From the UHGV virus genome UHGV-0298230: a stretch of DNA of 24,011 nt, one strand, 5' to 3'. The DNA is from a virus. A program made the translations under genes and the position numbers. Shown in pieces: positions 1 to 16,645 of the stretch (the first letter of the stretch is position 1; every line of letters begins with the position of its first letter). Below the pieces are notes generated by a model. That model saw only the letters and a list, made by a program, of their open reading frames with translations. It did no database searches and was not told the origin of the DNA.

Positions 1-25
1 AAATAAGCTCTTAAGCCGCGCCAAT

Positions 26-46
26 GGGTAAAATAGCGGGTAAAAT
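26..46 (+). repeat. Two tandem direct copies of the 9-mer GGGTAAAAT (26-34 and 38-46, 3-bp spacer); candidate integrase arm-type binding sites
   Basis: Exact 9-mer repeated twice; the same 9-mer recurs in both orientations at 236-280 on the other side of the putative core. Confidence 0.45.
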
Positions 47-104
47 TTTTTTCACATCTAAAAAACACCATTCCAATCAATCCCCTGCCGCTTCAAGTAG
101 ATGT

Positions 105-119
105 CTGCAGGGGACACCA
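105..119 (+). other. Candidate att core: CTGCAGGGGACACCA, resembling the 3' end of a tRNA (T-stem 3' half, acceptor 3' strand, discriminator, CCA)
   Basis: Ends in ...GGGGACACCA; resembles the 3' end of tRNA-Arg argW as I recall it; no matching 5' acceptor strand 60-90 nt upstream, so it is a fragment and not a complete tRNA; lies between the two 9-mer repeat clusters and just upstream of int. Confidence 0.5.
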
Positions 120-235
120 TTTATCAGTTCGCTCCCATCCGTACCAGTCCGCAAAATCCCCTGAATATCAAGCCTTCCGTAGATTCACAGTTCGTCATGG
201 TTCGCTTCAGATCGTTGACAGCCGCACTCCATGAC

Positions 236-280
236 GGGTAAAAAGTGGATAAAATAATTTTACCCACCGGATTTTTACCC
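236..280. repeat. Cluster of the same 9-mer in both orientations: GGGTAAAAA 236-244, GGATAAAAT 247-255, ATTTTACCC 257-265 (inverted), ATTTTTACCC 271-280 (inverted); candidate arm-type sites overlapping the int translation start
   Basis: Direct reading of sequence; the repeats end 1 nt before the int ATG at 281. Confidence 0.45.
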
Positions 281-1438
281 ATGCTCACCGTTAAGCAGAT
301 TGAAGCAGCAAAGCCGAAAGAAAAACCATACCGCCTTCTCGATGGTAATGGCCTGTACCTTTATGTCCCTGTATCCGGGAAAAAGGTATGGCAGCTTCGC
401 TACAAGATTGACGGTAAGGAGAAAATCCTGACCGTCGGAAAATATCCGCTTATGACTTTGCAGGAAGCAAGGGATAAAGCATGGACTGCGAGGAAAGACA
501 TCTCGGTTGGCATCGATCCGGTAAAAGCGAAAAAGGCTTCGTCTAACAACAATTCCTTTAGCGCCATTTACAAGGAATGGTACGAGCACAAGAAGCAAGT
601 CTGGTCTGTAGGGTATGCGACTGAACTTGCAAAAATGTTTGATGACGACATTTTACCTATCATCGGCGGCCTTGAAATTCAGGATATTGAGCCGATGCAA
701 CTGCTGGAAGTAATCCGCAGATTTGAAGATCGCGGTGCAATGGAGCGAGCCAACAAAGCCCGCAGAAGATGCGGCGAGGTTTTCCGTTACGCTATTGTTA
801 CTGGTAGGGCTAAATATAACCCGGCACCTGACCTTGCTGACGCCATGAAGGGGTACCGCAAGAAGAACTTCCCGTTTCTTCCTGCAGACCAGATCCCGGC
901 ATTCAATAAAGCACTGGCAACATTTTCAGGAAGTATCGTATCGCTCATTGCCACCAAGGTTTTACGCTACACTGCCCTAAGAACGAAAGAGCTTCGTTCC
1001 ATGCTATGGAAGAACGTCGATTTTGAAAACAGAATTATCACCATCGACGCCAGTGTGATGAAAGGACGCAAAATTCATGTGGTCCCGATGTCAGACCAGG
1101 TGGTTGAACTTCTCACTACGTTAAGCTCCATCACCAAACCAGTATCAGAGTTTGTTTTTGCCGGGCGCAACGATAAGAAGAAGCCAATCTGCGAGAATGC
1201 GGTACTGCTTGTGATCAAACAAATCGGCTATGAAGGTCTGGAAAGCGGTCACGGATTCAGGCATGAATTCAGCACGATTATGAACGAGCACGAATGGCCT
1301 GCTGACGCTATTGAAGTACAACTTGCACATGCCAACGGCGGATCTGTGCGCGGGATTTACAACCATGCTCAGTATCTCGATAAACGCAGAGAAATGATGC
1401 AGTGGTGGGCGGACTGGCTTGATGAAAAGGTGGAGTGA
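281..1438 (+). CDS. intS: Tyrosine integrase, P4/IntS-type (N-terminal DUF4102-like arm-binding domain plus C-terminal catalytic domain), 385 aa
   Basis: ORF 245..1438 begins with GTG; the first ATG is at 281 (MLTVKQIEAAKPKEKPYRLLDGNGLYLYVP...), a typical P4-family integrase N-terminus. The sequence matches my recollection of E. coli CPS-53/KplE1 IntS. C-terminal HxxR...Y-type region is present. Confidence 0.9.
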   Translation: MLTVKQIEAAKPKEKPYRLLDGNGLYLYVPVSGKKVWQLRYKIDGKEKILTVGKYPLMTLQEARDKAWTARKDISVGIDPVKAKKASSNNNSFSAIYKEWYEHKKQVWSVGYATELAKMFDDDILPIIGGLEIQDIEPMQLLEVIRRFEDRGAMERANKARRRCGEVFRYAIVTGRAKYNPAPDLADAMKGYRKKNFPFLPADQIPAFNKALATFSGSIVSLIATKVLRYTALRTKELRSMLWKNVDFENRIITIDASVMKGRKIHVVPMSDQVVELLTTLSSITKPVSEFVFAGRNDKKKPICENAVLLVIKQIGYEGLESGHGFRHEFSTIMNEHEWPADAIEVQLAHANGGSVRGIYNHAQYLDKRREMMQWWADWLDEKVE

Positions 1439-1590
1439 TCCACCTTAACCACTATCGAAGAGCACAAAGCCTTGCAATCCAGCGCAACGCTTTGTGTGTC
1501 TCAGTTTTGTCTCATCAACCATAGCAAGTATCGATCGATTGAGACTTGGATGATAGACTTCATGCCTTTCAGAATTCATTGATTAAATAA

Positions 1591-1953
1591 ATGTTAAAGC
1601 TATTTGCAAAGTACACCTCGATTGGCGTGCTGAACACACTTATACACTGGGTGGTTTTTGGTGTATGTATCTATGCCGCGCATACCAATCAGGCTCTGGC
1701 AAACTTCGCAGGTTTCGTTGTGGCTGTGAGTTTTAGCTTCTTCGCGAATGCAAGATTCACATTCAAAGCATCGACTACAACGATGCGCTACATGTTATAT
1801 GTCGGGTTCATGGGAACACTGAGTGCAACTGTTGGATGGGCTGCTGATAGATGTTCACTTCCTCCAATTGTCACTCTCATCACCTTCTCAGCCATCAGTC
1901 TTGTGTGCGGTTTCGTCTATTCAAAGTTCATTGTCTTTAGGGATGCGAAATGA
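1591..1953 (+). CDS. gtrA: GtrA, bactoprenol-linked glucose flippase (120 aa, 4-TM small membrane protein)
   Basis: Size, hydrophobicity and sequence ([24 protein letters not shown]...) typical of GtrA/YfdG; stop overlaps the gtrB start (ATGA at 1950-1953). Confidence 0.9.
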
Positions 1954-2873
1954 AGATATCTCTTGTAGTTCCTGTCTTCAATGAAGAAGAAGCAATACCA
2001 ATTTTTTATAAAACGGTACGTGAATTCGAAGAGTTGAAGCCATACGAAGTGGAAATTGTTTTCATAAATGACGGCAGCAAAGACGCTACGGAGTCAATTA
2101 TTAATGCTCTGGCTGTTTCAGATCCTCTAGTTGTTCCGCTGTCATTTACACGAAACTTTGGTAAAGAACCAGCATTATTCGCAGGGTTAGACCATGCAAC
2201 AGGCGATGCTGTTATTCCTATTGATGTTGACCTGCAAGACCCGATTGAGGTTATTCCTCATCTGATTGAAAAGTGGCAAGCAGGTGCCGATATGGTGCTT
2301 GCTAAACGATCTGACCGATCAACGGATGGCAGACTGAAGAGGAAAACCGCCGAGTGGTTCTATAAGCTACATAACAAAATTAGCAACCCGCAGATCGAGG
2401 AAAACGTTGGTGATTTCCGCTTGATGTCTCGCGAGGTGGTGGAAAACATTAAGCTCATGCCAGAGCGCAACCTGTTTATGAAGGGCGTGCTGAGCTGGGT
2501 TGGCGGACGCACCGATGTCGTTGAATATGCACGAGCAGAACGAGTCGCAGGCAGCACTAAATTTAACGGATGGAAACTGTGGAACCTTGCCCTTGAGGGG
2601 ATAACCAGTTTCTCAACATTCCCGCTGCGCATGTGGACTTATATCGGATTGTTCGTTGCTGGAATTGCTTTTCTTTATGGTGCATGGATGATTTTTGACA
2701 CGCTTGTATTCGGCAATGCTGTTCGTGGATATCCATCGTTATTGGTCTCCATTCTTTTCCTTGGAGGTATTCAACTTATCGGTATCGGTGTACTTGGTGA
2801 ATATATAGGAAGAATTTATGTGGAAGTAAAATGCAGACCACGATATATTTTAAAGAAAAAGGAACAATCATGA
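1950..2873 (+). CDS. gtrB: GtrB, bactoprenol glucosyltransferase (GT2 family, 307 aa)
   Basis: N-terminal GT2 motifs ([10 protein letters not shown]..., DGSKD, D-x-D region) and two C-terminal TM helices; classic position after gtrA. Confidence 0.92.
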
Positions 2874-4141
2874 ATAGCATAAACACAAACAGAATATTTT
2901 TGTTTTTGATTATATTTGTTATATGTTTCATCATATTCTGCATGCGTCGTCCTGATATTATTTCACACCCTCAACTATGGGCAGAGGATGGACGGGTATG
3001 GCTTGGTCAGGCTTATGCATTGGGCCCTCTGAAATCTATAATTTTAGTACAGGATGGTTACTATCAGACAATTTCAAAACTTGTTGCGACATTCTCCATG
3101 CTGTTCCCATTATATCTATCACCTTTTATTTTCACTGTTATTGCATTATCGATAAGATGCGTAATAATAACCTTCATACTATCTAATAGATTCAAAAGCG
3201 TTTCTATATATCCAAGAATATTAATTTCAATCTTCATTTTAACTATGCCACACCTTGAAGAGGTGCATGCCAACGTAACCAACACTCATTGGTATATGGC
3301 AATATGGCTATTCTTGGTGCTGGTAGCAGATAGAACTGATGGATTATATTGGAAAGCACACGACTTTTTGGTGATGGTTGTGGCTGGCCTAAGTGGGCCA
3401 TTCATTGTTTTTTTAGCTCCTGTTGCCTTACTAAGAATTACAAACGGAGATATTCTAAAAACTCCTATCAATGCAGTAAAAAATGCATTCAGAAACTTAA
3501 ACTTATTCTACATAACTTTCGCAATAGTGTGTTTAATTCAGATAGCCGCGATACTTCTCTCTTCTAAAGGCTCTCGACCGACCGCGCCACTTGGTGCAGG
3601 TGTAGGGATTTTGATGGATATACTATCCTCCAGAGTATTCCTTGGCTCATTTCTTAGTGAGAGCTTATCAAGAAAGGTGTGGGATCTGCATGCTTTAAAT
3701 TACTTTGTTTCTTTATGTGGCCTATCAATTAGTGCATACGTGCTATTAAAAGGGAACTGGAAAGAAAAAGCATTAGTGATTTTTCCTTATCTTATGTTGG
3801 GATTTGCCCTTGCCAGACCAGTCATTGCAAGAGACCAGCCTCAATGGCCTCTCTTACAAATAGGACCAGGACAAAGGTATTTTGTCATACCGGCCATATT
3901 TTGGGTGTCGATACTTCTAGCATTCACTAATATGCTTCATGGGCATGTAAAGAAATTAGCATTTTGCATAGTGGCTTGCTCAGTAATTATATCTGGAATT
4001 GTTAGCTTTAAAATTGAAAAAAGACCTAACAATGGATGGATACAAGAGGCATACAAATATGAGACAGCAGAGCCAGGGAGTCGCGTGAAAATGCACACAC
4101 TACCACACTCAGGATGGTATTTAGATATAATAAAAAAATAA
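2831..4141 (+). CDS. Serotype-specific O-antigen glucosyltransferase (GtrC-type polytopic membrane protein), 436 aa; alternative start at 2870 (423 aa)
   Basis: Highly hydrophobic multi-TM protein directly after gtrB; visibly AT-rich compared with flanking genes, as is typical of type-specific gtr genes. ATG at 2870 overlaps the gtrB stop (ATGA) and has AAGGAA 6 nt upstream, so it may be the true start. Confidence 0.8.
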
Positions 4142-4142
4142 G

Positions 4143-4170
4143 TTAAGGGCGGTATTCGCCCTTAATTTTA
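4143..4170. terminator. Bidirectional rho-independent terminator between the convergent gtrC and tailspike genes
   Basis: Perfect hairpin TTAAGGGCG-gtatt-CGCCCTTAA (4143-4165), flanked by an A-run upstream and TTTTA downstream; sits between stops at 4139-4141 (+) and 4168-4170 (-). Confidence 0.75.
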
Positions 4171-6060
4171 TCTAACTCTTGTTATCATAAAGTCAAAATC
4201 TGCATCAGCCAAGTTGCCAGAGTTATCAGTGGTCACGATCCTGATGGCTGTTGTGCTTGGCTTGCCTGCATATAGCACCTTAAACCCGTTAGTTTTAGTA
4301 CTTGCTACTACCTGAAAGTCATTTACTGTTGGTCCATATAAGAAAGCGCTATCAATTGAATATACCCCTGTGGATTGTTTTGCTATTGTTAAATAAGATG
4401 GTGCATACGCAACACCTGCCGACGTTACACTTCCAGAAATCACCGATGAAGTGCTTACCGTAGATATAGACTTGCTTATGTCCTCACTAAAATGACAGGT
4501 ATCCATTCCATTTAAAGTCATATAAGCACCTCCTGAGATAAATGGTCTCGAAGCGCTAGGTATGTATCCAAAAGCTGTTTGAGTAAAAAAATGACACCCA
4601 TTAAGGTTAACAATGACACGCCCACCACCAGTGCTTAACGCTCTAATCACATATGTACAATAACCGCCTGATGAATTCCCCCTTATAAATGTGCATGAAT
4701 TGATATTTACAATAAGAGGTGAAGATGTCATGTTATTAACCTGAATGTCTGATATTCCTTGATTTGCTTCAAAATAGCAATCAGATATATTTATCACAGA
4801 CATTGGTTCTTTAGCTCTTAGGTAAACACCTCCTGTACCAGTATCTCCCTGAGTTCCATTACCCTCAAAATTGCAGTTGTTTAGATTTATCCTTGTGCCT
4901 ATCTCTCCTTCAATTCCAAATTTTGAGTTACCACTAAAAACACCATTTATTTTTAGTGCGTTAACTGTGCTGTTTGTTCCTCCGTTGATGTACATACCGT
5001 AGTTATTATATTGAGAGTTAATTCTGTTAAATTCACTGGTAAGAACTCCTGTTATTACCAAGCCTGAATTATTTCTTACGAGATACACATCCTCAACTTT
5101 TAGGTATGCAGCATTGCTTAACCTTAATCCAACTCCAGAGTTACCAGTACCATAAACAGTGAAATTAGATAACTTCATACCGCTATGCACACCCTGCCCG
5201 CCCCCTTCTGAATTACCTATATACTCAAGGAAATCATTGCCATTGGTGTTAAATGCAGTATTCGCCATTGACTCGCCAGTAAAGTCAAACCTCTTACTTT
5301 TTCTTCCCATTACAGGAAAATTTGATCCAGAGTGGTTTACTGTAACTTTTGTGGTAGAATTGTATTGCCCATCCTTAATTTCTATACCTCCAGTACCAGT
5401 ATTAAGCATATTTTGAATAGCAGGTGAAACCTCTGTTCCAGATTTCACGCCAAACCATGAAGCCATTTTTGCGCCATTATATGAACGCTTCCAGCGACGG
5501 CCTACTGCATCAATTAATACTGTTCCATCATCATCTTCTGTCGTTGTATCATCTGAATCAAGGAAGAACCATCCTTCTCCTCCATCCTGATTATGTTCTC
5601 TTCCTACGCATTTTATTTGCGTTCCAGAAACGTTAGATGTCCTTATTTGTTCATAAGTCGCCCCAACAATATAAGATTCACCATCAACTGCTGCTAATTT
5701 GTTTATGAAAGCTGGCAATGCCTGATCGGGGTCATACTTCAGCACATTAGGAAAATAGAACTGCTGCGTACCATACGCATCATAAACAGCCATAGAATGG
5801 CCTTGCACGGTAACGAATTTGGCAATCTGTCCGTTATATACAGGGTAACCAGCCGCATTAATGATGATTGGTTGCGAAACAGGAACGTGAGAACCATCTT
5901 CGTTCTCTACATAAACCTGAATCTGGTTTTCAGGATTTACCGGGTCAGTGTCAATTTTACCGATATAAATTTTGCCATTGGCAACCGCTTTAAAAGAACG
6001 CGCCATAGTGAAGAGTTGCGAAGGCATACTCACTACAACATTGGCTGTAATGTCTGTCAT
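4168..6060 (-). CDS. Tailspike protein (630 aa): conserved P22-type N-terminal head-binding domain plus parallel beta-helix receptor-binding/O-antigen-cleaving domain
   Basis: N-terminal ~113 aa ([43 protein letters not shown]...KYDPDQ) closely resembles P22 gp9 head-binding domain; remainder has beta-helix-like repeats ([33 protein letters not shown]). Confidence 0.9.
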
Positions 6061-6135
6061 TTAATTTGCTCCAGATACAAGGAATCGCCGCAGCGTGGCT
6101 ACGGTTGGTATTTGTTGCATACCGAAACGGTACGA

Positions 6136-6164
6136 TTGTTGATTTGTACAGTAGGTTTTACGAT
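6136..6164 (+). promoter_or_regulatory. Candidate sigma70 promoter for the second mnt-like gene (-35 TTGTTG 6136-6141, 17-bp spacer, -10 TACGAT 6159-6164), adjacent to palindrome TACCGaaaCGGTA (6120-6132)
   Basis: Hexamer match and spacing only; weak. Confidence 0.3.
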
Positions 6165-6192
6165 GCCATTCCACCCATTTGGTGAGGCATTG

Positions 6193-6450
6193 ATGATGTA
6201 CAGCAAATACGATGAGGCGCAGTTCCACTTGAGGCTTACGCACGAGTTGCACGCCAAGATTAAGCAACGTGCAAAAATGAATAACAGGTCTATCAATTCC
6301 GAAATTGTGGCTACGATGGAAGAATCGCTCTCCAAACCATCACCTGTAAGCGGGTATCGTGATGAAGAAGAGAGGCTTGCCTCATTAATCTCGGAACGAG
6401 TAAAAGAAGTTGCGGCTGATATTCTTAGAAAAGAAAAAACCCGCGATTAA
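6193..6450 (+). CDS. mnt: Mnt-like ribbon-helix-helix repressor (Arc/Mnt family), 85 aa
   Basis: Sequence MMYSKYDEAQFHLRLTHELHAKIKQRAKMNNRSINSEIVATMEESLSKPSPVSGYRDEEERLA... closely parallels P22 Mnt as I recall it (…NGRSMNSE…SKPSPVTGYRNDAERLA…); SD GGTGAGG 6 nt upstream of the ATG at 6193. The long ORF 5797..6450 in the track is an artefactual N-terminal extension antisense to the tailspike. Confidence 0.8.
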   Translation: MMYSKYDEAQFHLRLTHELHAKIKQRAKMNNRSINSEIVATMEESLSKPSPVSGYRDEEERLASLISERVKEVAADILRKEKTRD

Positions 6451-6458
6451 GCGGGTTT
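6437..6458. terminator. Hairpin terminator AAACCCGC-gattaa-GCGGGTTT between the convergent mnt-like gene and the ant operon
   Basis: 8-bp GC-rich stem; on the minus strand it is followed by a T-run (TTTTTCTTTTC); the loop contains the mnt stop codon. Confidence 0.6.
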
Positions 6459-6464
6459 AATTGG

Positions 6465-6686
6465 TTAGTTATCAAAAAGTCCGTAAGTTTCTTCTTCTTC
6501 AGGTGTAAGGGGAAGAATCTCTACTCTATCTATAGATACCTTTTCAATGTACCCATGAGGTCTACTTAAAATTAAAGCTCTCTCATGCCACAGAACTCCA
6601 AGAATGTGATACCTTCCAGCATCTCCTTTTACCCTGGCTCTTCCTTTGATTCTTGGCGGCATAATGCCATATCTTTTCTTTGCCAT
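6465..6686 (-). CDS. Hypothetical small protein (73 aa), basic N-terminus and acidic C-terminus
   Basis: Start ATG overlaps the stop of the upstream gene (TAATG), indicating translational coupling; MAKKRYGIMPPRIKGRARVKGD...LTPEEEETYGLFDN; no family recognised. Confidence 0.55.
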   Translation of the reverse strand: MAKKRYGIMPPRIKGRARVKGDAGRYHILGVLWHERALILSRPHGYIEKVSIDRVEILPLTPEEEETYGLFDN

Positions 6687-7414
6687 TATGCAACATTGCT
6701 CCCATGAATCAGGTGTTGTAGTGCTTTAACACCCTCCGCATTGTAGCGGAATGCTTCCACCTGTTTGCTTGAATGCGCAGATTTATCCAAGAAGAACTTC
6801 CCGTACTGCTCAGTTTTGAGGTTGTTTGCGTTAGCAATGCGACCAATCTTGTTGGCCGTTACTCCAAGCTGCTCTGCAACCTCCCCTGCTGAGTAGTAAT
6901 GCTCTTCTATTGCCGGAAGAGGTATTGCATTAAAACCAACGAGCGGGTTGATTATACTTGCTGCCGCTGTCTGCTTTGCCTCCGGCGCAAGATTTGGCAT
7001 CAGATCGAACAGATTGGTAACAGCTTCAACCGTCATTTTCAATGTTCGCGCTTGACGATACTCAACAAGTCCACTCGCTGATTTACCGCTTTTAATGTGC
7101 GCTTCTTGCATACTTTCAAGTTGGTCTACCAGTGAGCGGCGAACGGCTTTTGACTCGCGAGCGGCAACTCGCAATGCTTGCTTGATTGACATCTCAATGA
7201 TAACCATCGAAGTTTTGTTCGCTTTTTGCACTACACTTTTTGTGTAGTGCTCTCCATCCAATTCATCTTCAATTTTCTCGATGAATTTGTTATTACGAAC
7301 CTCCGGCTCACCGCACTGTCTACGAGCCTGATTTACCATCTCAAGCAGGCGCTGGCTGTCAATGGTTTTATCCGTGACAACGGATCCGATGTTTGCTACA
7401 TTCTTAAAAGTCAT
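6686..7414 (-). CDS. Antirepressor-type regulatory protein, possibly Rha/ORF6N-like N-terminal region and KilA-C/ANT-like C-terminal region (243 aa from ATG at 7414)
   Basis: AAGGAA 6 nt upstream of the ATG at 7414; C-terminal ...YYSAGEVAEQLGVTANKIGRIANANNLKTEQYGKF resembles antirepressor KilA-C-type motifs; the ORF track start at 7501 is a TTG directly after the upstream stop. Confidence 0.65.
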   Translation of the reverse strand: MTFKNVANIGSVVTDKTIDSQRLLEMVNQARRQCGEPEVRNNKFIEKIEDELDGEHYTKSVVQKANKTSMVIIEMSIKQALRVAARESKAVRRSLVDQLESMQEAHIKSGKSASGLVEYRQARTLKMTVEAVTNLFDLMPNLAPEAKQTAAASIINPLVGFNAIPLPAIEEHYYSAGEVAEQLGVTANKIGRIANANNLKTEQYGKFFLDKSAHSSKQVEAFRYNAEGVKALQHLIHGSNVA

Positions 7415-7482
7415 TAGGCATTCCTTATGTGGTAGTAAGGGTGTGACATAGGCCGCCAGCAGCACACTGGCGGTTTTCTTTT
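7409..7482 (+). ncRNA. Candidate sar-like antisense RNA complementary to the start codon and SD of the 6686..7414 gene
   Basis: Plus-strand terminator CCGCCAG-cagcaca-CTGGCGG followed by TTTTCTTTT (7453-7482) lies in the intergenic gap of a minus-strand operon; candidate promoter -35 GTGACA (7374-7379), -10 TACATT (7397-7402); the transcript would contain UUCCUU, anti-SD to AAGGAA. Confidence 0.4.
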
Positions 7483-7501
7483 GCGCCGTCCTGTGCACCA
7501 A

Positions 7502-8140
7502 TCAATGAATCCATTCCTCGCCGCGAAGTTTTGCCAGCATTGGCTGAGCGTTCTTTACGACAAAATTGTTGGTATCAAGATTCTTCATTTCACGAAGAAG
7601 CGATTTCTTGGTTTCTTCTGACATGTAGCGAGTCTCATATGCAATATCGTAAATCCTTCCAGAAAGCTCAGAACCAATTTGCTTCATTCCTGGGTAGATG
7701 TGTTTGCACATTTGTTGACTCTTCTCCATCCACAATTGTAAGTAGCAGAGATTAACCAGCTCTTCGTCAGTAAACTGTTTTGCAATCGGTGAGCATTCTG
7801 CCTGCCGATCCAAAATATCCAGCACCCAGCGGCGGAACTCTTTGGCCTTGGGCGTAGAAGCAAACATCGCCACCAAGTGAGCGCCTCGGAGCGAGTAAAC
7901 TCTGACCGATTTGTTACGTAAGCTATTGTTTATCCCGTTGACCTTCATATTGAGGGTCAATGACATTGAGTCGGAAAATTCGTCAGCATTACGGGCATAA
8001 ATTTGGCTGATGGCATCAGTTTTTTTATAGCCGAGAGCCTTAGCTAGTTCGGCGGAGGTGAACCAGATAGACCCGCCCTCTGTTACAGGGTTAAAAGTGA
8101 ATCCTTGGAAGTTATAATCTGATTTTGCTACAATATTCAT
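7502..8140 (-). CDS. Antirepressor-type protein with Bro-N/AntA-like N-terminal domain (212 aa from ATG at 8140)
   Basis: AAGGAA 6 nt upstream of the ATG at 8140; N-terminal region (FNPVTEGGSIWFTSAELAKALGYKK...VRVYSLRGAHLVAMFASTPKAKEFRRWVLDIL) matches the Bro-N/AntA pattern; the track's longer ORF start at 8224 overlaps the arc-like gene and lacks an SD. Confidence 0.7.
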   Translation of the reverse strand: MNIVAKSDYNFQGFTFNPVTEGGSIWFTSAELAKALGYKKTDAISQIYARNADEFSDSMSLTLNMKVNGINNSLRNKSVRVYSLRGAHLVAMFASTPKAKEFRRWVLDILDRQAECSPIAKQFTDEELVNLCYLQLWMEKSQQMCKHIYPGMKQIGSELSGRIYDIAYETRYMSEETKKSLLREMKNLDTNNFVVKNAQPMLAKLRGEEWIH

Positions 8141-8215
8141 GTTAGTTTCCTTGGGTACGGTTACTGACATAGAGGCCCGGTTTGTGTTCGCGCACTTCCG
8201 GGCTTCACTATTTTT
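8141..8215 (+). ncRNA. Candidate sar-like antisense RNA covering the SD and start of the Bro-N antirepressor gene
   Basis: Plus-strand candidate promoters (-35 TTGGAA 8105-8110 / -10 TACAAT 8129-8134, or -10 TATAAT 8113-8118) inside the 5' end of the minus-strand gene; imperfect stem-loop 8173-8205 followed by TATTTTT (8209-8215) in the arc-ant gap; arrangement matches P22 sar RNA. Confidence 0.4.
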
Positions 8216-8390
8216 ACTGGGCATTAGCTCTTTCCTCTCTCAGGCTTTTAGCCAGTCGCTGCACAATCGCAGAGTTGATAGAAATTCCATCCATTTCAGC
8301 TACGCGTCTGATCTCCTCCTTCATTCGCGCTGGCAAACGAAGCTGGAAACTCTGACTTTTACGACCACTGTAAAGAACATCGCTCATCAT
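8214..8390 (-). CDS. arc: Arc-like ribbon-helix-helix repressor (58 aa from ATG at 8390; track ORF extends to 8405)
   Basis: ...SQSFQLRLPARMKEEIRRVAEMDGISINSAIVQRLAKSL... has the Arc/Mnt RHH signature; GGAG 6 nt upstream of the ATG at 8390; divergent from the mnt-like gene across an operator-rich region, as in P22 immI. Confidence 0.75.
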   Translation of the reverse strand: MMSDVLYSGRKSQSFQLRLPARMKEEIRRVAEMDGISINSAIVQRLAKSLREERANAQ

Positions 8391-8401
8391 CAATATCTCC
8401 G

Positions 8402-8475
8402 TCATAATGACATCACCGTGATGTCATGACACCATTATGATGCCATTGCTCATAATGTCAATATGATGCTACTGT
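8402..8475. promoter_or_regulatory. Divergent promoter/operator region: 21-bp perfect palindrome ATGACATCA-ccg-TGATGTCAT (8407-8427), repeated TCATAAT/ATTATGA half-sites, and a strong minus-strand promoter (-35 TTGACA at 8461..8456, 16-bp spacer, -10 CATAAT at 8439..8434)
   Basis: Direct reading; the palindrome lies at about +1 of the minus-strand promoter, consistent with an operator for an RHH repressor. Confidence 0.55.
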
Positions 8476-8510
8476 GTTTTTTATTGCTCATATGCCTTGC
8501 GAATAAGAAA

Positions 8511-8762
8511 ATGTCAGAAAAAGACGAATCAAATTTCATAGAAAGATTTACGGTTAGAATGCCTGAAGGCATGCGTAGTGCTATTGCGGAAAGGGCTAAA
8601 CGAAACGGTCGATCTATGAACTCAGAGATAGTTCAAATTCTTGAGGATGCGTTATCATCTGACGTCTCATCAGTAGACAAATCATTAGATCTTAAACAAA
8701 TAAAATCTTTACTTGATAAAATTTCCAACGAGTTACTGGATAGAATCCCAAAAGACACATAA
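8511..8762 (+). CDS. mnt: Mnt-like ribbon-helix-helix repressor (83 aa from ATG at 8511)
   Basis: MSEKDESNFIERFTVRMPEGMRSAIAERAKRNGRSMNSEIVQILEDAL... has the Arc/Mnt signature (NGRSMNSE); same length as P22 Mnt; the track start at 8463 lies inside the operator region. Confidence 0.75.
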   Translation: MSEKDESNFIERFTVRMPEGMRSAIAERAKRNGRSMNSEIVQILEDALSSDVSSVDKSLDLKQIKSLLDKISNELLDRIPKDT

Positions 8763-8808
8763 CAAAACATTATCATCCGGTGTTCTGCTCAAAACTAAGG
8801 AGGTTGGT

Positions 8809-9129
8809 GTGTATATATCGCTATCTACCATTTTTTTCATCTGCTTAGCTATTTGGCTTTTAAGAATATGGCAGGATTGCTCTGTCAGCCATGCTGCTGC
8901 GGTGAGAAATAAAAACGCCCTCATAAAAGAAGCTGAAAACGTTGTCTTATCAATGGATCACCTTTCATGGACCGAGATGACTACAGGGCAACAAGAGGTT
9001 TATGAGTGTGCGATTGAGCGGTTAAGGCTGCTTAAATCGTACAAAAAGAACCACGCACCCGACTCATTCCCATTCCTGAAAGAATGGCCGAGATGGTATG
9101 ACCCGAAAAAAGCAACCATCAACCGCTAA
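8809..9129 (+). CDS. Hypothetical small membrane-anchored or secreted protein (~106 aa) at the position occupied by sieA in P22
   Basis: Strong SD AGGAGG (8798-8803) 5 nt upstream of in-frame GTG at 8809; N-terminal hydrophobic segment (YISLSTIFFICLAIWLLRIW) then a soluble domain; no family recognised. Confidence 0.55.
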   Translation: MYISLSTIFFICLAIWLLRIWQDCSVSHAAAVRNKNALIKEAENVVLSMDHLSWTEMTTGQQEVYECAIERLRLLKSYKKNHAPDSFPFLKEWPRWYDPKKATINR

Positions 9130-9137
9130 CCAACTTT

Positions 9138-11144
9138 TTACTGCTGGGCTTTCTCACTTGAAGCCTGAATTAGAGGTGTAAGAGTTTCAGATACCCGTCT
9201 GATCGCTCTATCATAAGCAGTACTTCCTTTTGGTGTGTTTGCTAACTTTAGTAATGCGTTCCTCATCGCGCGTGACTCATAGCCCCTGCCAGCCATACCG
9301 ATACCAGCTCCAACTGCCGCAACTTTTGCAAACATTGGATTTGTAACAGATGCAAGAGCTGTTATCAGCGCTGCTGGACCAGCTACCATTTGCCCTGTTA
9401 GTGGGCTTGCGGCAGCAGTAGCTGCCTGTCTAGTGGAATCAAGATATTTCATTATCCCATCAAGCTGTTTCCCATGCTCTCCTCTGAAGAACGTCTCAGC
9501 CTGCTTCCGATTCCTTTTCATTTCATTAATAAACTTCTCAACGCTAAGCTTTCCTGAATCGCTTGTCGCCTTATCCATTGCACGCTGAACAAGTGCTGCT
9601 CTAGCATTTTGACGCCCACTATCATCAAGCAATCGATAAAGTTGCGCCCTTTCCGCTGGGCTTTGGCTGAATACTAGTTTAGTGACATCTTCTGGCGTTG
9701 TTTTACCACTCTGAATAGCTTTTTGGACACGTGTATTGCTCATCATGTCGTTGAACTTTGCCCAAGAACGATCAATACGCGACATGTTTTGCGCTTCCTT
9801 CGCACCTAGTTTTGCGCCAACCGCTTTTTTCATGTCTGTTGTGTATGCGTTATAAACAGACTGCGCAGCTTTCTCCAGCGTATCTCTATCGACCTCGTCA
9901 GGTGCTGCCATAAAGCGCTTACGTAAGTTTGTACGGTTTTCTCTAGCTAATTGCAGGTTATTTGGACCGCTGGTGATGTCATTTCTAAACTGTTGAAGGA
10001 CAGAAACAGCTGAGCGGTCTTGCGATACTCCTGGGCGAGTTAACTTGGAAATCTGCTCATCAATTGCTTTCACTGTTCCAGTGATGTCAACAGGAGTATC
10101 CCCCATCAAACTGATGATCCTGTCGTACCGCTTGCCAGCAGCCTGAATAAATTGCTGCTGACCACGAGTAGCTGATTGGTAAAGTTGTGCGTCAGATATT
10201 CCACCAACATTATCGCTAAATGTTCTAACTAAATCTTCCCTGGCCTTTTGCTGTGCATTTCTTATCCCACCTGTTCCGGCTATTGGGATTCGCTCAGCCA
10301 TAGCTCGTGCTTGCTTACCAATATTTGTTCCCGGTTCCACAAGATCTGTTGTCATCAGTGGCAAGTTGTTCTGCTTGGCAAAGTCAATCTGAGCTTGTTT
10401 TTCAGGAGCAATCTTACCCATAGCAGAACGAGACACTGCGCTTGCGGTGTTTTCTACACCCTTCAGTACCCCACCAAGACCAGCAGAAATTGCAGTTTGA
10501 ACTGGATTAACATTCTCACCGCCAGCGATCTTTGTGGCACCCTGTAAAGCTAAATCAGTAGCGCCTGATTTTAGTGTTGCACCTACAACAGACGCAGCTC
10601 TACCTGCTGGAGTGAATGCAAGAGCATTTGCCAAGAATGACGTTATATCCTGCGGTGACAAACCAGGCTTGTTAAGTGCATATTCCCCTGAAGGAAGGGT
10701 GACTATGGAATTTCCCTTCTCATCCTTCCGGATTTTCCCGCCAATACTTTGCAGTATTTTCTCCTGTGAAGCGTCGGAACCAAATAGCTGCCCCAATCCA
10801 GCACGCAGCGCATCAGTGCTTAAGCTATTAAGCTCTGGAGCAGACCCAACATTTTGCAGTCTCTCCATTTCTGGTGTCATTCGGCTTTCACCGGTAACGG
10901 CATCGCGCATTGCAGCACCTAAAACAGCCCCTTGCTCAGCAGATCGATCTAGTCCTTCCTTCTGCTGAGTGGCAAGCTGTGCATATCCTGATGCAAGTGA
11001 GTTGTCTGCTGGCGATTGCTGAACACCTTGTTGTGTTGGTGCTGACTGACCAGCAAAATACTCATCAATGGCGGTGCCAATATCTTCGGTGCTCGTACCA
11101 TCAGGAAAGGTAAATGTCTTACCGTTTGCAGTTACTTTCATCAT
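9138..11144 (-). CDS. Ejection (internal virion) protein, P22 gp16-like (668 aa)
   Basis: Position and order after gp7/gp20 homologues; N-terminus [30 protein letters not shown]; start overlaps the upstream stop (ATGA). Confidence 0.85.
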
Positions 11145-12556
11145 TCCACCGTAAATTGAATGCCTGATTTTGAGGTATATGATCCAACCTGATTCCGTGG
11201 TTCTCCTGAAGGTGTCGAATCTTGTGCTGGCGCTGCGTCAGTATTCATTGACATATACCGCTTAACGGCACTCCCCAATGATTCACCTTTTTTAACATCC
11301 AACCCCAATATCTGACCGCCATTACGCGATTGTCCAGGGTTGCCATTCGCGCTCATCCACTCGGCTTTAAACTCATTAAACTGCGCGTTTCGTCGCTCAA
11401 GGTTTGCCATTGCATCAAGCCATCTTGCGACCGTCTCAGGGTTATCCATGTCAGTTGGCGCACCCTGTCGAACAATCTCAACGTCTTTATCCGTTGCTGG
11501 GCCGGGAGGTAGGAATTTAAGAACCTGACTGTTAACAAGGGCATTTTGGCGAATGCGCAAATCACGCAATGTCGTATCGCTTCCGGTAAGTTTTGCGAAC
11601 ATGTTCTGTGCGTTACCGAACAAACCTGTCGTTGGTTTTTCTGCTCTGAACTGTTGAGCAAGCGCACTCATAGAATTGGCTGAGTTTGATGATGCTGTAG
11701 CATTGTTTACAGCCGTCTCGATGCCTTTTTCCATGTTTACTGACAGCTTAGGTGCTTCGCTAATCAACTGCTGAGCCTTTTCCTGTGCTTGCTGCATCTT
11801 AAACCCGAACTCTTGCTGATCCAGAGCCAAGCGTTGTGCTGCGATATTGTGTCCAGTCATTGCTGACTGATAGGAAAGGTTTTGCCCTCTCGCCTGAAGT
11901 GCTTCTCCAGCCTGATTGCTGCGGATTGTCTCTGCCAGTCTGCCTCGGTCAATCTCACGACCAGCCATCTTGTCCTGAACAGCAAACGCCTTTTCTGGCC
12001 CAAGCGCACCGAGAGACATAGTAGTCAGCATGTGTGATAGCTGCTCTGGATTCTGGATACCTGTCTGAATCATCCAGTCAGCATTCGCCCCCACGCGATT
12101 TAACCTGTCCTTGTTGTCAGTAATGAATTTACTGTAGGCTTCCGGTCCCTGAGAAAGAGCGACGTTAGCCCTCATGGCTAAATCGCCCATATCGTTGCGT
12201 TGCTGCTCATTAAGACCAGAAAACGCCTGTTGTGCCTGTGCAACAAACGCTGGATTTTCCTGGGCAAACTTAAATAGTCCCGATGGATCACCAGAAGCCC
12301 ATGCATCAGCGTGAACCTTATTGAACGCACTAATAGCTTTCTGTTGCTGTTCCTGATTGTAAATATCAGCAACTCCAGCCAGACCACGTAACGCGGTCAG
12401 GCCAACGTTATTTGCACCTGAGCGAGCCAGTTCATTGTTTTCGCGGATCAGACCAAGCGTTGCGTTAATGTCGCTTGCCTTTGGCGCATTCTCATTTTGC
12501 GTACCGATGCCAGCCAGAAAACCACCAGAATTAATACCCTGTTGCCACGCAGCCAT
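11141..12556 (-). CDS. Ejection protein, P22 gp20-like (471 aa)
   Basis: Same length as P22 gp20; conserved synteny gp7-gp20-gp16. Confidence 0.85.
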
Positions 12557-12566
12557 TGATTACCCC

Positions 12567-13262
12567 TTAATAAAGCAGTGAACCAAGCAGACCGATACCA
12601 GCACCGATACCAGCACCCCACGGAGTTGATGAACCAATTAATTTCGCAAGTCCAGCCCCAGCAATAGCACCAGACGCACCTCCGCCAATAGCAGATTGCA
12701 TTGCTGATGGTCTGTTGGCATTTGCCGCTGCAAGAGCCGCACTTTGCTGCGAAATCTGACTCATGTTGTTGGCATATGTCTGCCCGGCGTTTGCCTGACC
12801 TTGCAGTGCGCCAAGACCAATATTTGCCAGATTCTGGTAGTTGTTCATCTGACCAGATAGCCATTGCTGACCAAGCGTTGGTGCGATTGTTGCTAACTGA
12901 TTACCGGTTGCAGTGGAACCCAATCCACCTGTTGCTTCCGCTGCAGCCAGACTCTGATAGCGAGCCTGACCTGCAAGGTCTTTATACTGCTGAGAGTTGT
13001 AATACTGGTTAAGCGCCTGACCTTGCCCTTCCAGAGACGATAAGTTCTCGAGGCTGCCGACATACTTATCAGCCAGAGGAGTAAACGGCTTCAGGTTGTT
13101 CATGATGGTGTTGAACTGCTGATTTTGCAGATCTGCAGCATACTTCTGAGCTTCTGCTGCATACTTTGCGCTTTTATCAGAACTGCCACCTTTCCCGCCT
13201 TTTTCAGGGGAAAAAGGTTCCTCGCCGCGCAGTTTTCTGCCCAGCTTAAATGCATATAACAT
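12567..13262 (-). CDS. Ejection protein, P22 gp7-like (231 aa)
   Basis: Gly/Ala/Gln-rich low-complexity protein with hydrophobic C-terminus, typical of gp7; synteny. Confidence 0.8.
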   Translation of the reverse strand: MLYAFKLGRKLRGEEPFSPEKGGKGGSSDKSAKYAAEAQKYAADLQNQQFNTIMNNLKPFTPLADKYVGSLENLSSLEGQGQALNQYYNSQQYKDLAGQARYQSLAAAEATGGLGSTATGNQLATIAPTLGQQWLSGQMNNYQNLANIGLGALQGQANAGQTYANNMSQISQQSAALAAANANRPSAMQSAIGGGASGAIAGAGLAKLIGSSTPWGAGIGAGIGLLGSLLY

Positions 13263-13264
13263 GG

Positions 13265-13723
13265 CTATCTCCTGTGATTCAGGAAGTCGATTAGTTCTTC
13301 GCGTGTGGCGCTGTAAAACGTCACGTCATCCACGCCTTTGAAGTATTTCTTGATGGTTCCTACACGCTTAAGGCCAATCATTGCGCAGTACATCTGCCCG
13401 TGGCGGAATTTGCGTGCAGCGAACGATGTGACGCACTGAACAGTGGTGTTAGTCAGAATGTATCGCCAGAACGCCAGCCCGATTTCCTTGCTGAAGCCGC
13501 GAATCTCTGGCAGGTACATGGCGTGGCAATCGAATGTCAGCGGCTGAATCTCCTGATAGTAAACAATGCCGCCGAACTGCCCGTGCACGCTCACCTCAAA
13601 GTAACGGCATTCAGGCTTGTAGTCGTATCCATCCCCGTTGTTGCTTCCGGCAATAATGTCAGGGTGATTTCCGACTGCTTCGATCAGGTCGATGTTTCGC
13701 GTTGGTTTGAACTGAATCATCAC
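13265..13723 (-). CDS. P22 gp14-like virion assembly/DNA-transfer protein (152 aa)
   Basis: Position between tail needle and gp7 homologues as in P22 (26-14-7-20-16); assignment by synteny and size. Confidence 0.65.
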
Positions 13724-14568
13724 TGCTCCGCAATGATTTTGATTGTTGTGGCAGTAAACGCTGCACCATTTGACTGAATGGTTAACGTACTGCCATTTGT
13801 GGCAAGAAAGCCGTCTTTATCCACGCTGAAGAACGTAGCTAACAGGATGTTGTCGGTTGTTGTCGCCGCATTACGACTGCTGACCAACGTGTCAGGAACA
13901 GAGCCGGAAAAGGTTAGCTGCATTGACCTGTTTGCGGTTCCACTGGGCCATGTCCCGACAATCGACAGCTTGAAGAGCAAGGTTTTGTTCTCGTTGAACA
14001 CAACGATCTTGTTGTTAACGGTGTCGAAGAATGGTGCCAACGTGCCGGATGACGGAGTGAGCGTTTTCAGCAGGCTAACAAGGTTGGTCGGCGCTGTCGG
14101 GATGGTTACAGATACGCCAGAGTAAACAACCTCTGACTTTTTGCGAGTAGTGGCATACTCCAGAGCATCAATGCGCGTTTCATGGTCTGAAAGCGTGTTT
14201 TGAATGGCGATAACTTCATCAGTCAGATAATCAATATCGTTTTCTGCTGTCGTTAATCGGGAATCAAGGCCGACTATCGCCGATTCTGCGTTAGTGATCC
14301 TTGTTTCGTGGTCCTGAATCTTCGCTTCAGCTGATGCCAGTCGAATTTCGTGATCGACCAGAATCACATCCTGCTCATCGTTCCTGACTTGTGCGTCATA
14401 AGCGCCCTGTCCGGCCTCGTTGGCCTTGTTCGCCACGTTACCAACATCAGTACCCTGTGCGATAACGTACAGCAGATATGACTGCGAGAAGATATTGCGT
14501 GGAAGGACTGATGTGTCGAGCCGCGTAGCCTGGATGATTACCGGCACATTGAGATTCGAATCCGCCAT
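13720..14568 (-). CDS. Tail needle (P22 gp26-like) with extended C-terminal knob domain (282 aa)
   Basis: N-terminus [27 protein letters not shown], heptad-rich coiled-coil middle, C-terminal beta-rich extension as in Sf6-type needles; synteny. Confidence 0.85.
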
Positions 14569-15986: not shown

Positions 15987-15994
15987 TTATTCAC

Positions 15995-16477
15995 CTATGA
16001 GTTTGGGATATCGCCATCAATCAGAGGGAGATCGCCTGGATAATATCGGTCAGATGTGAACACGTCATATTTATTACCCTGTCCTACAGGAAAATCTCCA
16101 CGTCGTCGCATTGAAGGAACAACCAGAGTGTCGGTCATCAAGGCATCATATGAGCGTTGGGCGTTACTGAGAACTTGCGGAGTTGGTTCAAGGCTGTAAT
16201 CAGATAGCATTCTCAGCAATAACTGATAGCCTACTGCGTGTTTGTATTTTCTTGGAAGACCTGACTCATCATCTGGTAATGGCTGCTCATCTCCAGTTGC
16301 GAAAGCGTAACCGATGTCGCCTGGGTTAATCATCCACTCGGACATCATATCTTCCAGATCATTTACACCATCTTCAATTGATTGCGGCTCAACATCAGTC
16401 AGCGATGCATTAGAAGCAATAGCAAACTTACGAAGCGCAAAAAGGACGATCTCACCCTTTGTCAGTACTGTTGCCAT
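15995..16477 (-). CDS. Head-to-tail adaptor, P22 gp4-like (160 aa)
   Basis: Motif ...[23 protein letters not shown]... parallels P22 gp4 (…[23 protein letters not shown]…) as I recall it. Confidence 0.85.
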   Translation of the reverse strand: [160 protein letters not shown]

Positions 16478-16637: not shown

Positions 16638-16645
16638 ATTGTTTC

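What the first reader, a model, noticed from the sequence alone, without database searches (positions are those of the whole stretch)
7374..7482. Textbook plus-strand terminator in the gap of a minus-strand operon: candidate second sar-like antisense RNA
CCGCCAG-cagcaca-CTGGCGG followed by TTTTCTTTT (7453-7482) is a strong intrinsic terminator, but only for the plus strand. The surrounding genes are all on the minus strand. A plus-strand promoter candidate (GTGACA-17-TACATT, 7374-7402) lies inside the 5' end of the downstream antirepressor-type gene. The predicted ~75-nt transcript is exactly antisense to that gene's SD and start codon, the architecture of P22 sar RNA.
Basis: partly seen in the sequence, partly recalled or inferred. 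Interest (0 to 1): 0.65.

Follow-up and report, generated by a model that had tools for sequence, protein, structure and literature searches.

The report
Second sar-like antisense RNA gene
Between two antirepressor genes of a P22-like E. coli prophage lies a promoter-to-terminator unit on the opposite strand that most likely makes a ~70-nt antisense RNA blocking translation of the second antirepressor, and the same unit sits in front of at least five antirepressor-type gene families in Enterobacterales prophages.

Summary
The hairpin CCGCCAG-7-CTGGCGG plus TTTTCTTTT (7453-7482, + strand) is the best terminator-like site in 20 kb. GTGACA-17-TACATT (7374-7402) carries an extended -10 (TGc) and lies in codons 5-14 of the minus-strand gene 6686-7414.

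The promoter match alone is no better than chance. The case rests on comparison:
- The block from promoter to T-run stays in front of this gene whatever lies upstream.
- Of 79 distinct contexts retrieved by the hairpin alone, 73 have xxGACA-17-TGnTAnnnT at the same place and 4 have TTGACT-16-GATAAT.
- These contexts cover five antirepressor-type families.
- Stem variants show compensatory changes and many G·U pairs that exist only on the + strand.
- Synonymous variation in codons 1-14 is about 6-8 times lower than in the rest of the gene, except at a spacer codon.

The layout matches the annotated P22 sar and shares its TTGCTAnA -10 context. The RNA is not a member of Rfam sar (RF00262).

Verdict: a real, unannotated sar-type cis-antisense RNA gene, a new member of a known kind, in a portable mosaic cassette. 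No transcript data were available, so expression and repression are inferred.

The parts
7374..7379 (+). -35 hexamer GTGACA of the predicted antisense promoter, encoded by ant2 codons 12-14 (V-V-T)
   Evidence: xxGACA lies exactly 17 nt from the -10 in 73 of 79 hairpin-anchored contexts. Codons 12-14 are invariant at synonymous sites inside the hexamer.
7394..7402 (+). Extended -10, TGc + TACATT, encoded by ant2 codons 5-7 (N-V-A)
   Evidence: TTGCTAnA is shared with the annotated P22 Psar and with the arc-ant1 element of this window. Codons AAT/GTA/GCA show no synonymous variation. The TG is kept even when Ala becomes Pro (CCA) or Ser (TCA).
7409..7482 (+). Predicted ~66-74 nt antisense RNA ('sar2'). 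The start at about 7408-7410 is inferred from the -10 position and the 3' end falls in the T-run.
   Evidence: Fold: -25.1 kcal/mol, two stem-loops, z = -2.2. Homologous predicted RNAs are 63-82 nt long. Of 114 unique RNAs, 100 fold better on this strand than on the complement.
7410..7447 (+). 5' stem-loop (SL1). Its inner stem is 7423-7428 paired with 7435-7440. The anti-SD UCCUU (7422-7426) lies in the 5' arm.
   Evidence: A 5' hairpin that carries the anti-SD recurs in the other UTR types.
7450..7482 (+). Intrinsic terminator: 10-bp stem (7 core G-C-rich pairs plus A-U and G·U extension), 7-nt loop, UUUUCUUUU tail
   Evidence: Covariation and + strand G·U pairs in 37 distinct homologous hairpins.
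6686..7414 (-). Target gene ant2: 242 aa, PHROG 1726 'anti-repressor', annotated 'KilA protein' in phage JEP4. SD at 7422-7426, ATG at 7412-7414.
7502..8140 (-). Upstream gene ant1 (Bro-N + P22_AR_C antirepressor). The ant1-ant2 gap holds the terminator.
   Evidence: The gene upstream of the cassette is an Ant of this type or of the P22 type in nearly all loci.
8214..8405 (-). arc-like repressor gene, first gene of the operon that contains ant1 and ant2
   Evidence: Pfam Arc, 1e-11.
8434..8461 (-). Pant-like promoter TTGACA-16-CATAAT (11 of 12), the likely source of the arc-ant1-ant2 mRNA and convergent with the antisense promoter
   Evidence: It sits in the same position as the annotated Pant/Pmnt pair of P22.

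Best explanation
Window 7374-7482 is a small independent gene on the + strand. A sigma-70 promoter with an extended -10, embedded in codons 5-14 of the minus-strand antirepressor-type gene ant2, starts transcription at about 7408-7410. The RNA polymerase stops at the intrinsic terminator 7450-7482 in the ant1-ant2 gap. The product is a ~66-74 nt RNA with two stem-loops.

The RNA is perfectly complementary to the ant2 mRNA from about 68 nt upstream of the AUG to a few nt past it. That stretch includes the SD and the start codon. By analogy with P22 sar, it pairs with the arc-ant1-ant2 transcript and blocks ribosome binding at ant2. The duplex probably also exposes the mRNA to RNase III. Ant2 is therefore only made in a short burst, or when Pant transcription outruns or occludes the convergent antisense promoter.

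Shown here: the sequence elements, their conservation, the strand on which the structure is selected, and the geometry. Inferred: promoter activity, the 5' end, pairing in vivo and repression.
For: 1. Anatomy. The best terminator-like site in 20 kb works only on the + strand. The promoter has a TG extension.

2. Linkage to the gene. In 80 IMG/VR loci retrieved through the Ant2 protein, the block from promoter to T-run accompanies the gene behind at least four different upstream genes.

3. Promoter behind the hairpin. Of 79 distinct contexts retrieved by the hairpin alone, 73 have [G/T][T/C]GACA-17-TGnTAnnnT 39-57 nt upstream on the same strand. Another 4 have TTGACT-16-GATAAT. The remaining 6 are ordinary gene-end terminators. 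The strict motif never occurs on the other strand or downstream.

4. Several gene families. The downstream genes belong to Phage_pRha, Bro-N, KilA-N+ANT, ORF6N and the Ant2 family. ORF6N bodies supply TCGACA (V-D-P), while Rha and Ant2 bodies supply GTGACA (V-T). Both sit 17 nt from the same -10.

5. Terminator structure. In hairpins retrieved through proteins, 97.6% of cells are paired and 3 pairs show changes on both sides. Twenty cells are double-changed against 6.4 in shuffles (0 of 500 shuffles reach this). There are 45 G·U cells and one non-standard cell (unpaired on the + strand; its identity is not reported) in the core pairs, so the structure is kept on the + strand and not on the mRNA strand.

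6. Synonymous sites. Diversity is 0-0.04 in ant2 codons 1-14 and 0.23-0.34 elsewhere. The spacer codon 11 varies freely, and amino-acid changes are tolerated in codons 2-4.

7. Comparison with P22. The annotated sar has the same layout and shares the TTGCTAnA -10 context.
Against: No RNA data of any kind were available.
- The promoter match (9 of 12) is at chance level in this window when taken alone, and TACATT departs from consensus at positions 3 and 5.
- Low synonymous diversity at a gene's 5' end can also come from constraints on translation initiation, or from recent recombination of the leader segment.
- The near-invariance of the core stem may partly reflect its use as a recombination junction rather than only terminator function.
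- Strong convergent transcription from Pant could keep the promoter silent for most of the cycle.
Confidence: 0.75

Rival explanations
1. The hairpin is an insulating terminator only. It stops stray or convergent + strand transcription, for example read-through from the mnt-like gene at 6193-6450 or spurious starts inside ant2, from running antisense into ant1 and arc. The promoter-like match would then be a by-product of a conserved N-terminal peptide.
For: A + strand RHH gene lies downstream, and its terminator (6437-6458) has only a weak T-run on the + strand. The promoter match alone is not above chance.
Against: The same terminator occurs in loci that have no + strand gene downstream, such as SPN3UB and KP12. 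It is always paired with a promoter at a fixed 39-57 nt.

The leader peptide itself varies (NVA, NLA, TLA, KIA, NVP, NLS), while the bases that form TG, TA and T are kept. Synonymous sites under the hexamers are frozen while the spacer varies. Two unrelated protein bodies supply different -35 hexamers at the same spacing.
Confidence: 0.1
2. The inverted repeat works in the minus-strand mRNA as an intercistronic stabiliser, an RNase III site or a translational-coupling element between ant1 and ant2.
For: The minus strand also folds a hairpin here, and the SD can be sequestered (-19.5 kcal/mol). An RNase III or stability role could coexist with the antisense RNA.
Against: Among 37 distinct hairpins, 45 cells are G·U on the + strand, including an internal pair in 11 sequences. 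These become C·A mismatches on the mRNA strand. The reverse case is at most one cell: the single non-standard cell in the core pairs, whose bases are not reported.

The + strand folds better in 100 of 114 predicted RNAs. The conserved T-run is on the + strand side only.
Confidence: 0.07
3. The palindrome is a DNA site: either an operator for a dimeric repressor (Arc/Mnt-like or other), or a conserved linker that only serves homologous recombination between phage modules.
For: It is a perfect 7-bp inverted repeat that is nearly invariant across many genera. Mosaic junctions fall right at its edges, and loops are reassorted among bodies.
Against: The spacer between the arms varies in length (5, 6 or 7 nt among the 33 loop variants tallied) and in sequence, which does not fit a fixed protein contact. 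Arm changes are compensatory in the RNA sense and include G·U pairs. The T-run is always present.

A linker role does not exclude the RNA gene, and would not explain the fixed promoter.
Confidence: 0.05
4. It is a chance co-occurrence: an ordinary hairpin plus a random promoter-like match, with no function.
For: Promoter-like sites at this threshold are as common as in shuffled sequence.
Against: The hairpin is expected 0.00 times in shuffles. The pair is conserved in 167 of 177 unique contexts, and the strict promoter motif was not found on the opposite strand or downstream in any of the 177. The strand-specific structure and the synonymous-site pattern also argue against chance.
Confidence: 0.02

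Closest known systems
P22 sar RNA (Rfam RF00262; Liao et al. 1987 and Wu et al. 1987, as cited in PMC2629481 and PMC12111858)
   Same: It is a cis-antisense RNA of about 70 nt. Its promoter lies inside the first codons of an immI antirepressor gene, and its terminator lies in the intergenic gap upstream of that gene.

It has two stem-loops and is complementary to the SD. The -10 is preceded by TTGC (TTGCTAnA). It sits in an arc/mnt-controlled operon.
   Different: The sequence and the terminator differ, and RF00262 does not match. The target is a second, unrelated antirepressor-type gene downstream of ant rather than ant itself.

The predicted RNA covers the start codon, whereas P22 sar starts next to it. 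The anti-SD lies in a stem arm rather than a loop. The -35 is closer to consensus (GTGACA against GTGTTA) and the -10 is further from it.
The arc-ant1 element of this same window (8105-8212, +), a direct positional counterpart of P22 sar
   Same: It has the same architecture and the same TTGCTACA -10 context. It is on the same strand and in the same operon.
   Different: Its terminator is different (GAGGCCCGG...CCGGGCUUC). Its 5' stem-loop resembles P22 sar (GUUAGU...ACUGAC). Its target is ant1. Rfam RF00262 does not match it either.
c4 RNA of P1/P7 and the CA RNA of N15 (antisense control of ant; from my own knowledge, not tested here)
   Same: They are small RNAs that hold back antirepressor synthesis in an immI-type region.
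   Different: Those RNAs are processed from the same-strand leader transcript and act on sites upstream of the target. The element here is on the opposite strand, with its own promoter and terminator.
Plasmid copy-control and other phage cis-antisense RNAs (CopA, RNA I, lambda OOP, P22 sas; from my own knowledge)
   Same: They are short, structured, constitutively made antisense RNAs that end in an intrinsic terminator.
   Different: Their targets and biology are different. Whether the variable terminator loop seen here acts as a kissing-loop specificity determinant, as in plasmid systems, is unknown.

Membership tests
sar-type cis-antisense regulator of an antirepressor (functional class defined by P22 sar) | Promoter on the opposite strand inside the 5' end of the antirepressor gene | tested here: met
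   GTGACA-17-TGcTACATT lies in ant2 codons 5-14. It is conserved in 73 of 79 hairpin-anchored contexts, and synonymous sites under the hexamers are frozen. Promoter activity itself was not tested.
sar-type cis-antisense regulator of an antirepressor (functional class defined by P22 sar) | Intrinsic terminator for the antisense strand in the intergenic gap upstream of the target | tested here: met
   Covariation and + strand G·U pairs. There is no T-run on the minus strand.
sar-type cis-antisense regulator of an antirepressor (functional class defined by P22 sar) | Short RNA (about 60-80 nt) with a 5' stem-loop plus terminator, complementary to the target's ribosome binding site | tested here: met
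   Predicted length 66-74 nt with two hairpins. It covers the SD at 7422-7426 and the AUG at 7412-7414. Homologues are 63-82 nt.
sar-type cis-antisense regulator of an antirepressor (functional class defined by P22 sar) | Target is an antirepressor in an arc/mnt-controlled immI operon | tested here: met
   mnt, arc and ant1 (Bro-N + P22_AR_C) are identified, and ant2 matches PHROG 1726 'anti-repressor'. Antirepressor activity of Ant2 has not been tested.
sar-type cis-antisense regulator of an antirepressor (functional class defined by P22 sar) | The RNA is made and lowers translation of the target | not testable with these tools
   No transcriptome or genetic data are accessible. It needs a Northern blot, 5' RACE and reporter assays.
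Rfam RF00262 (sar RNA sequence/structure family) | Covariance-model score at or above the gathering threshold (43 bits) | tested here: not met
   P22 scores 97.8 bits. The window gives no RF00262 hit at gathering, or at E <= 10 over 6300-8800.
Intrinsic (Rho-independent) terminator | G+C-rich stem, short loop, U-tract immediately 3' of the stem | tested here: met
   10-bp stem with 6 G-C pairs, 7-nt loop, UUUUCUUUU tail, -15.3 kcal/mol.
c4/CA-type processed antisense RNAs of P1, P7 and N15 | RNA encoded on the same strand as ant, upstream in the same transcript, and released by processing | tested here: not met
   The hairpin's T-run and the promoter are on the strand opposite to ant2.

The most novel reading that the evidence does not exclude
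The unit from promoter to terminator (about 105-115 bp) may be a self-contained, portable 'brake' module. It recombines as a block onto unrelated antirepressor-type genes. It gives them their RBS, their start codon and a 14-20 codon N-terminal leader whose main job is to encode the antisense promoter, together with the RNA that represses them.

In tandem arrays (arc-sar1-ant1-sar2-ant2), each antirepressor would then carry its own private RNA repressor. The reassorted terminator loops (33 variants on one stem) might define specificity classes for cross-repression between a resident prophage and a superinfecting phage.
Probability: 0.45. Interest if true: 0.7.

Novelty: new member of a known kind. 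Interest (0 to 1): 0.55.

Why it matters
P22 sar has been the single textbook case of RNA control of an antirepressor since 1987. If this element is expressed, sar-type control is a general, modular solution rather than a P22 peculiarity. It would be used by prophages of many Enterobacterales genera for at least five antirepressor-type families, and it can occur twice in one operon.

Three consequences follow:
- It identifies an unannotated RNA gene in 77 of 5,426 complete E. coli genomes.
- It explains an odd conserved N-terminal extension on Rha, ORF6N and KilA-type proteins.
- It offers a direct way to test how tandem antirepressors are controlled individually during lysogeny decisions and superinfection.

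Tried and rejected
- Rfam. There was no hit at gathering over the whole window. At E <= 10 over 6300-8800 only noise appeared, such as SgrS at 13 bits on 7388-7481. RF00262 does detect P22, so the negative result is meaningful.
- Promoter statistics within the window. These were uninformative, with 24 sites against 31 expected, so I relied on conservation instead.
- Minus-strand terminator. Rejected, because no T-run follows the hairpin on that strand.
- Operator or DNA-site reading. Rejected on variable loop length, RNA-type compensation and G·U pairs.
- mRNA-structure reading. Disfavoured by the strand asymmetry.
- Isolated phages. Only JEP4, phiKp_30, KP12, the SPN3UB group, Midgardsormr38 and two Klebsiella phages carry related cassettes, and none annotates an RNA there.
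- Literature. Four full-text searches and five papers found only P22 sar, with no second sar-like RNA. The library lacks most subscription journals, so prior description cannot be excluded.
- The 271-aa ORF from TTG 7501. Rejected as the real ant2 start. It merely reads through the hairpin in frame. The ATG at 7414 has a good SD and is the start annotated in JEP4.
- Protein homology searches, structure prediction and a covariance model of the cassette. These were not run, because the question was about the RNA element and the pattern- and protein-anchored retrievals were sufficient.

Full report
**What is in the sequence**

- Promoter: GTGACA (7374-7379), 17 nt, TACATT (7397-7402). The -10 is preceded by TGc, so it is an extended -10.
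- Terminator: CCGCCAG (7453-7459), cagcaca, CTGGCGG (7467-7473), TTTTCTTTT (7474-7482).

The scan tool reports both sites. Over window 1-20000 the hairpin ranks first of 31 terminator-like sites. It folds at -15.3 kcal/mol with z = -3.0. On the minus strand it is followed by CCTA and not by a T-run, so it can terminate + strand transcription only.

The promoter match by itself means little. At the same threshold the window has 24 such sites against 31 expected from shuffles.

**Context**

The window is a P22-like (Lederbergvirus-type) E. coli prophage. It is 95% identical to phage JEP4 over this region and is present in 77 of 5,426 complete E. coli genomes.

The locus is an immI-type region, in this order:
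- mnt, 8463-8762 (+)
- divergent Pant-like and Pmnt-like promoters, 8434-8467
- arc, 8405-8214 (-)
- ant1, 8140-7502 (-), with Bro-N and P22_AR_C domains
- the gap that holds the hairpin
- ant2, 7414-6686 (-), PHROG 1726 'anti-repressor' with no Pfam match
- a 73-aa ORF
- a terminator at 6437-6458
- a second mnt-like gene on the + strand
- the tailspike gene

The ant2 SD (AAGGA, 7422-7426) and its ATG (7412-7414) both fall inside the predicted + strand transcript.

**Does the pair travel together?**

I retrieved 80 IMG/VR loci through the Ant2 protein. This retrieval is blind to the hairpin. In these loci the stretch from GTGACA through the T-run is conserved in front of the gene, while the sequence beyond the T-run belongs to at least four different upstream genes.

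I then retrieved loci through the hairpin alone. This retrieval is blind to the promoter, and it gave 79 distinct contexts.
- 73 contexts have [G/T][T/C]GACA-17-TGnTAnnnT on the hairpin strand, 39-57 nt upstream. The motif lies inside the first 14-20 codons of an opposite-strand gene whose ATG is 26-39 nt from the hairpin.
- 4 more contexts have a different and better promoter, TTGACT-16-GATAAT.
- The remaining 6 are ordinary terminators at gene ends, which serves as an internal control.

It is never on the other strand or downstream. Part of that set was retrieved with a pattern that included the promoter, so the 73 of 79 figure is the unbiased one.

A combined promoter-plus-hairpin pattern is found in 30 stretches from 28 species-representative genomes, mostly Enterobacterales. 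These include Yersinia, Serratia, Pantoea, Erwinia, Citrobacter, Rahnella, Raoultella and Buttiauxella.

**What lies downstream and upstream**

The genes behind the cassette fall into five families: Phage_pRha, Bro-N, KilA-N+ANT, ORF6N and the Ant2 family. All are antirepressor-type modular proteins.

In the Rha proteins the Pfam domain starts at residue 15-20. The leader that encodes the promoter is therefore an N-terminal extension.

Leaders are mosaic.
- The same leader, MTKLTLANNGGSVT, sits on an Ant2-type body in L177 and on a Rha body in L156 and L178. Nucleotide identity starts at GTGACA.
- The MQQS...NVAN leader sits on both ORF6N and Rha bodies. In that case identity starts at the -10, and each body supplies its own -35: TCGACA from V-D-P, or GTGACA from V-T. 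Both are exactly 17 nt from the -10.

Two unrelated protein families therefore keep a -35-like hexamer at the same spacing, which is hard to explain except by selection for a promoter.

The gene upstream of the cassette is almost always an Ant of the Bro-N/P22_AR type or of the P22 type itself, with N-terminus [20 protein letters not shown]. The arrangement arc-ant1-cassette-second antirepressor is thus a common one.

**On which strand is the structure selected?**

Protein-anchored retrieval of the ORF6N family revealed stem variants: CCGGCAG/CTGTCGG, CCGGTAG/CTATCGG, CCGGTAG/CTACCGG and CCGCCAA/TTGGCGG.

I aligned 37 distinct hairpins and counted pairs.
- 97.6% of cells are paired.
- Three pairs change on both sides: C-G to G-C or G·U, C-G to U-A or U·G, and G-C to A-U.
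- 20 cells are double-changed against 6.4 in shuffles, and 0 of 500 shuffles reach this.
- Sliding the partners by 1-3 columns drops pairing to 20-58%.

There are 45 G·U cells, including an internal pair in 11 sequences. On the mRNA strand these would be C·A mismatches. At most one cell could be the reverse case: the single non-standard cell in the core pairs, whose bases the tool does not report.

The + strand also folds better than its complement in 100 of 114 unique predicted RNAs. The hairpin is therefore maintained for the + strand transcript. This fits a terminator for an antisense RNA and does not fit an mRNA element.

**Is the promoter constrained beyond the protein?**

I analysed a codon alignment of 53 distinct ant2 sequences.
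- Synonymous pairwise diversity is 0 in codons 1-4 and 0.04 in codons 5-14. It is 0.23-0.34 elsewhere in the gene.
- Amino-acid replacements are frequent in codons 2-4 (0.19).
- Within the promoter span, the only freely varying synonymous site is codon 11 (TCC, TCT or TCA), which lies in the spacer.

Across families the residue at the -10 varies among V, L and I, but the codon is always NTA (GTA, TTA, CTA or ATA). The next codon is GCA, CCA or TCA, which always keeps the CA that gives the TG of the extended -10.

**Comparison with P22 sar**

The curated P22 record annotates the following:
- sar RNA at 15021-15090
- its terminator at 15021-15058
- its promoter at 15097-15125, inside ant codons 3-12. 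The promoter is GTGTTA-17-TATACT preceded by TGc, with the start adjacent to the ATG.

P22 sar folds into two stem-loops. The three promoters, P22 Psar, the window's arc-ant1 element and the element under study, align on TTGCTAnA.

The candidate's hexamers (5 of 6 and 4 of 6, plus TG) are as close to consensus overall as those of the mapped P22 promoter (3 of 6 and 5 of 6, plus TG).

The predicted RNAs of all UTR types share the plan of a 5' hairpin carrying the anti-SD followed by the terminator.

Rfam's sar model scores 97.8 bits on P22 but finds nothing in the window. This is a different RNA family of the same functional kind.

**Most likely mechanism**

A constitutive, moderately strong promoter fires against the arc-ant1-ant2 transcript and makes a ~70-nt RNA. 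This RNA pairs with the ant2 translation-initiation region, blocks ribosome entry and probably triggers cleavage of the duplex.

Because Pant is much stronger (11 of 12 matches) and convergent, the antisense promoter may be occluded while Pant is active. It would then take over once Arc shuts Pant off, as proposed for P22. That step comes from my own knowledge of the P22 literature and was not tested here.

All functional steps are inferred. The sequence logic and its conservation are shown.

**Rivals**

- A pure insulating terminator does not explain the fixed, conserved promoter.
- An mRNA stability or processing hairpin is contradicted by the strand asymmetry.
- A protein operator or a mere recombination linker is contradicted by variable loop length, RNA-type compensation and the T-run. 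A linker role may coexist, because mosaic junctions sit at the promoter and just after the T-run, and loops are reassorted among bodies.
- Chance is excluded.

**Novelty and limits**

No Rfam family, no annotation in any related phage record, and none of the papers searched describes a second sar-like RNA or this cassette. The paper library is incomplete, so earlier mention cannot be ruled out.

I class it as a new member of a known kind. The portable-cassette reading is the more novel possibility.

The main limit is the absence of any expression data. The comparative sets are also related sequences and not independent trials.

Noticed in passing
window 8105-8212 (+): This is the positional counterpart of P22 sar, lying between arc and ant1. 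Its promoter is TTGGAA-18-TGcTACAAT (8105-8134), with a start expected at about 8141 next to the ant1 ATG (8138-8140).

Its 5' stem-loop (GUUAGU...ACUGAC) resembles that of P22 sar. Its terminator is GAGGCCCGG...CCGGGCUUC, followed by ACUAUUUUUA. It folds at -31 kcal/mol with z = -5.4. Rfam sar does not match it.
   Followed up: partly
window 7415-7501 and 8141-8224 (-): Both antisense-RNA regions are open in frame with the gene downstream of them. Mechanical ORF calls therefore extend ant2 to TTG 7501 (271 aa) and ant1 to ATG 8224 (240 aa).

The recurrent 'KNSEA.KCANTNRAS' N-termini in many loci are just the translated sar1 terminator hairpin. This is a likely source of mis-annotated starts in databases.
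   Followed up: partly
L086-L315, terminator loops: 33 different loop sequences (5-7 nt) sit on essentially one stem. The same loop recurs with many different RNA bodies and flanks; for example, CTCCACA occurs with 16 bodies. Identical bodies also carry different loops.

This suggests crossovers within the stem. Whether loops act as specificity determinants is unknown.
   Followed up: partly
window 7483-7501 and homologous loci: A ~25-nt segment lies between the stop codon of the upstream Ant gene and the T-run, for example GCGCCGTCCTGTGCACCAATCA in the window and GCGCCATCCCATGCGCCCATCAG elsewhere. It is conserved behind many different upstream genes. Its role is unexplained.
   Followed up: no
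window 6193-6458: A second Mnt/Arc-type RHH gene (6193-6450, +) lies between the tailspike gene and the ant operon. It is convergent with the operon, and the two share a hairpin terminator at 6437-6458 that has a strong T-run on the minus strand only. Phage JEP4 annotates it as 'regulatory protein mnt'. The region therefore has two mnt-like genes flanking the ant operon.
   Followed up: no
window 8693-8722 (+): This is the third of only three TG-extended promoter-like sites in 20 kb (TAAACA-18-TAAAAT). It lies at the 3' end of mnt, just before the 138-aa ORF 8713-9129 (PHROG 10450, unknown function, in the position sieA occupies in P22).
   Followed up: no
L206, L207, L213, L223, L233 (genome-contig hits): The promoter-plus-hairpin pattern also hit contigs labelled Anaerolineae, Clostridia, Oscillospiraceae and Chryseobacterium. 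Three of these hits (L206, L213, L223) have bodies unlike the cassette and are probably chance matches. The other two (L207, L233, both Chryseobacterium) were not examined and may be contamination.
   Followed up: no
L070-L073 (IMG/VR loci with an Ant2 relative): A diverged Ant2 relative (matching residues 5-238, probably with a GTG start) lacks the CCGCCAG terminator. It still has TGcAATATT in its first codons and a different small hairpin (AATCTCCGC-gagt-GCGAGGATT) upstream with a poor T-run. This may be a decayed or alternative version of the cassette.
   Followed up: no
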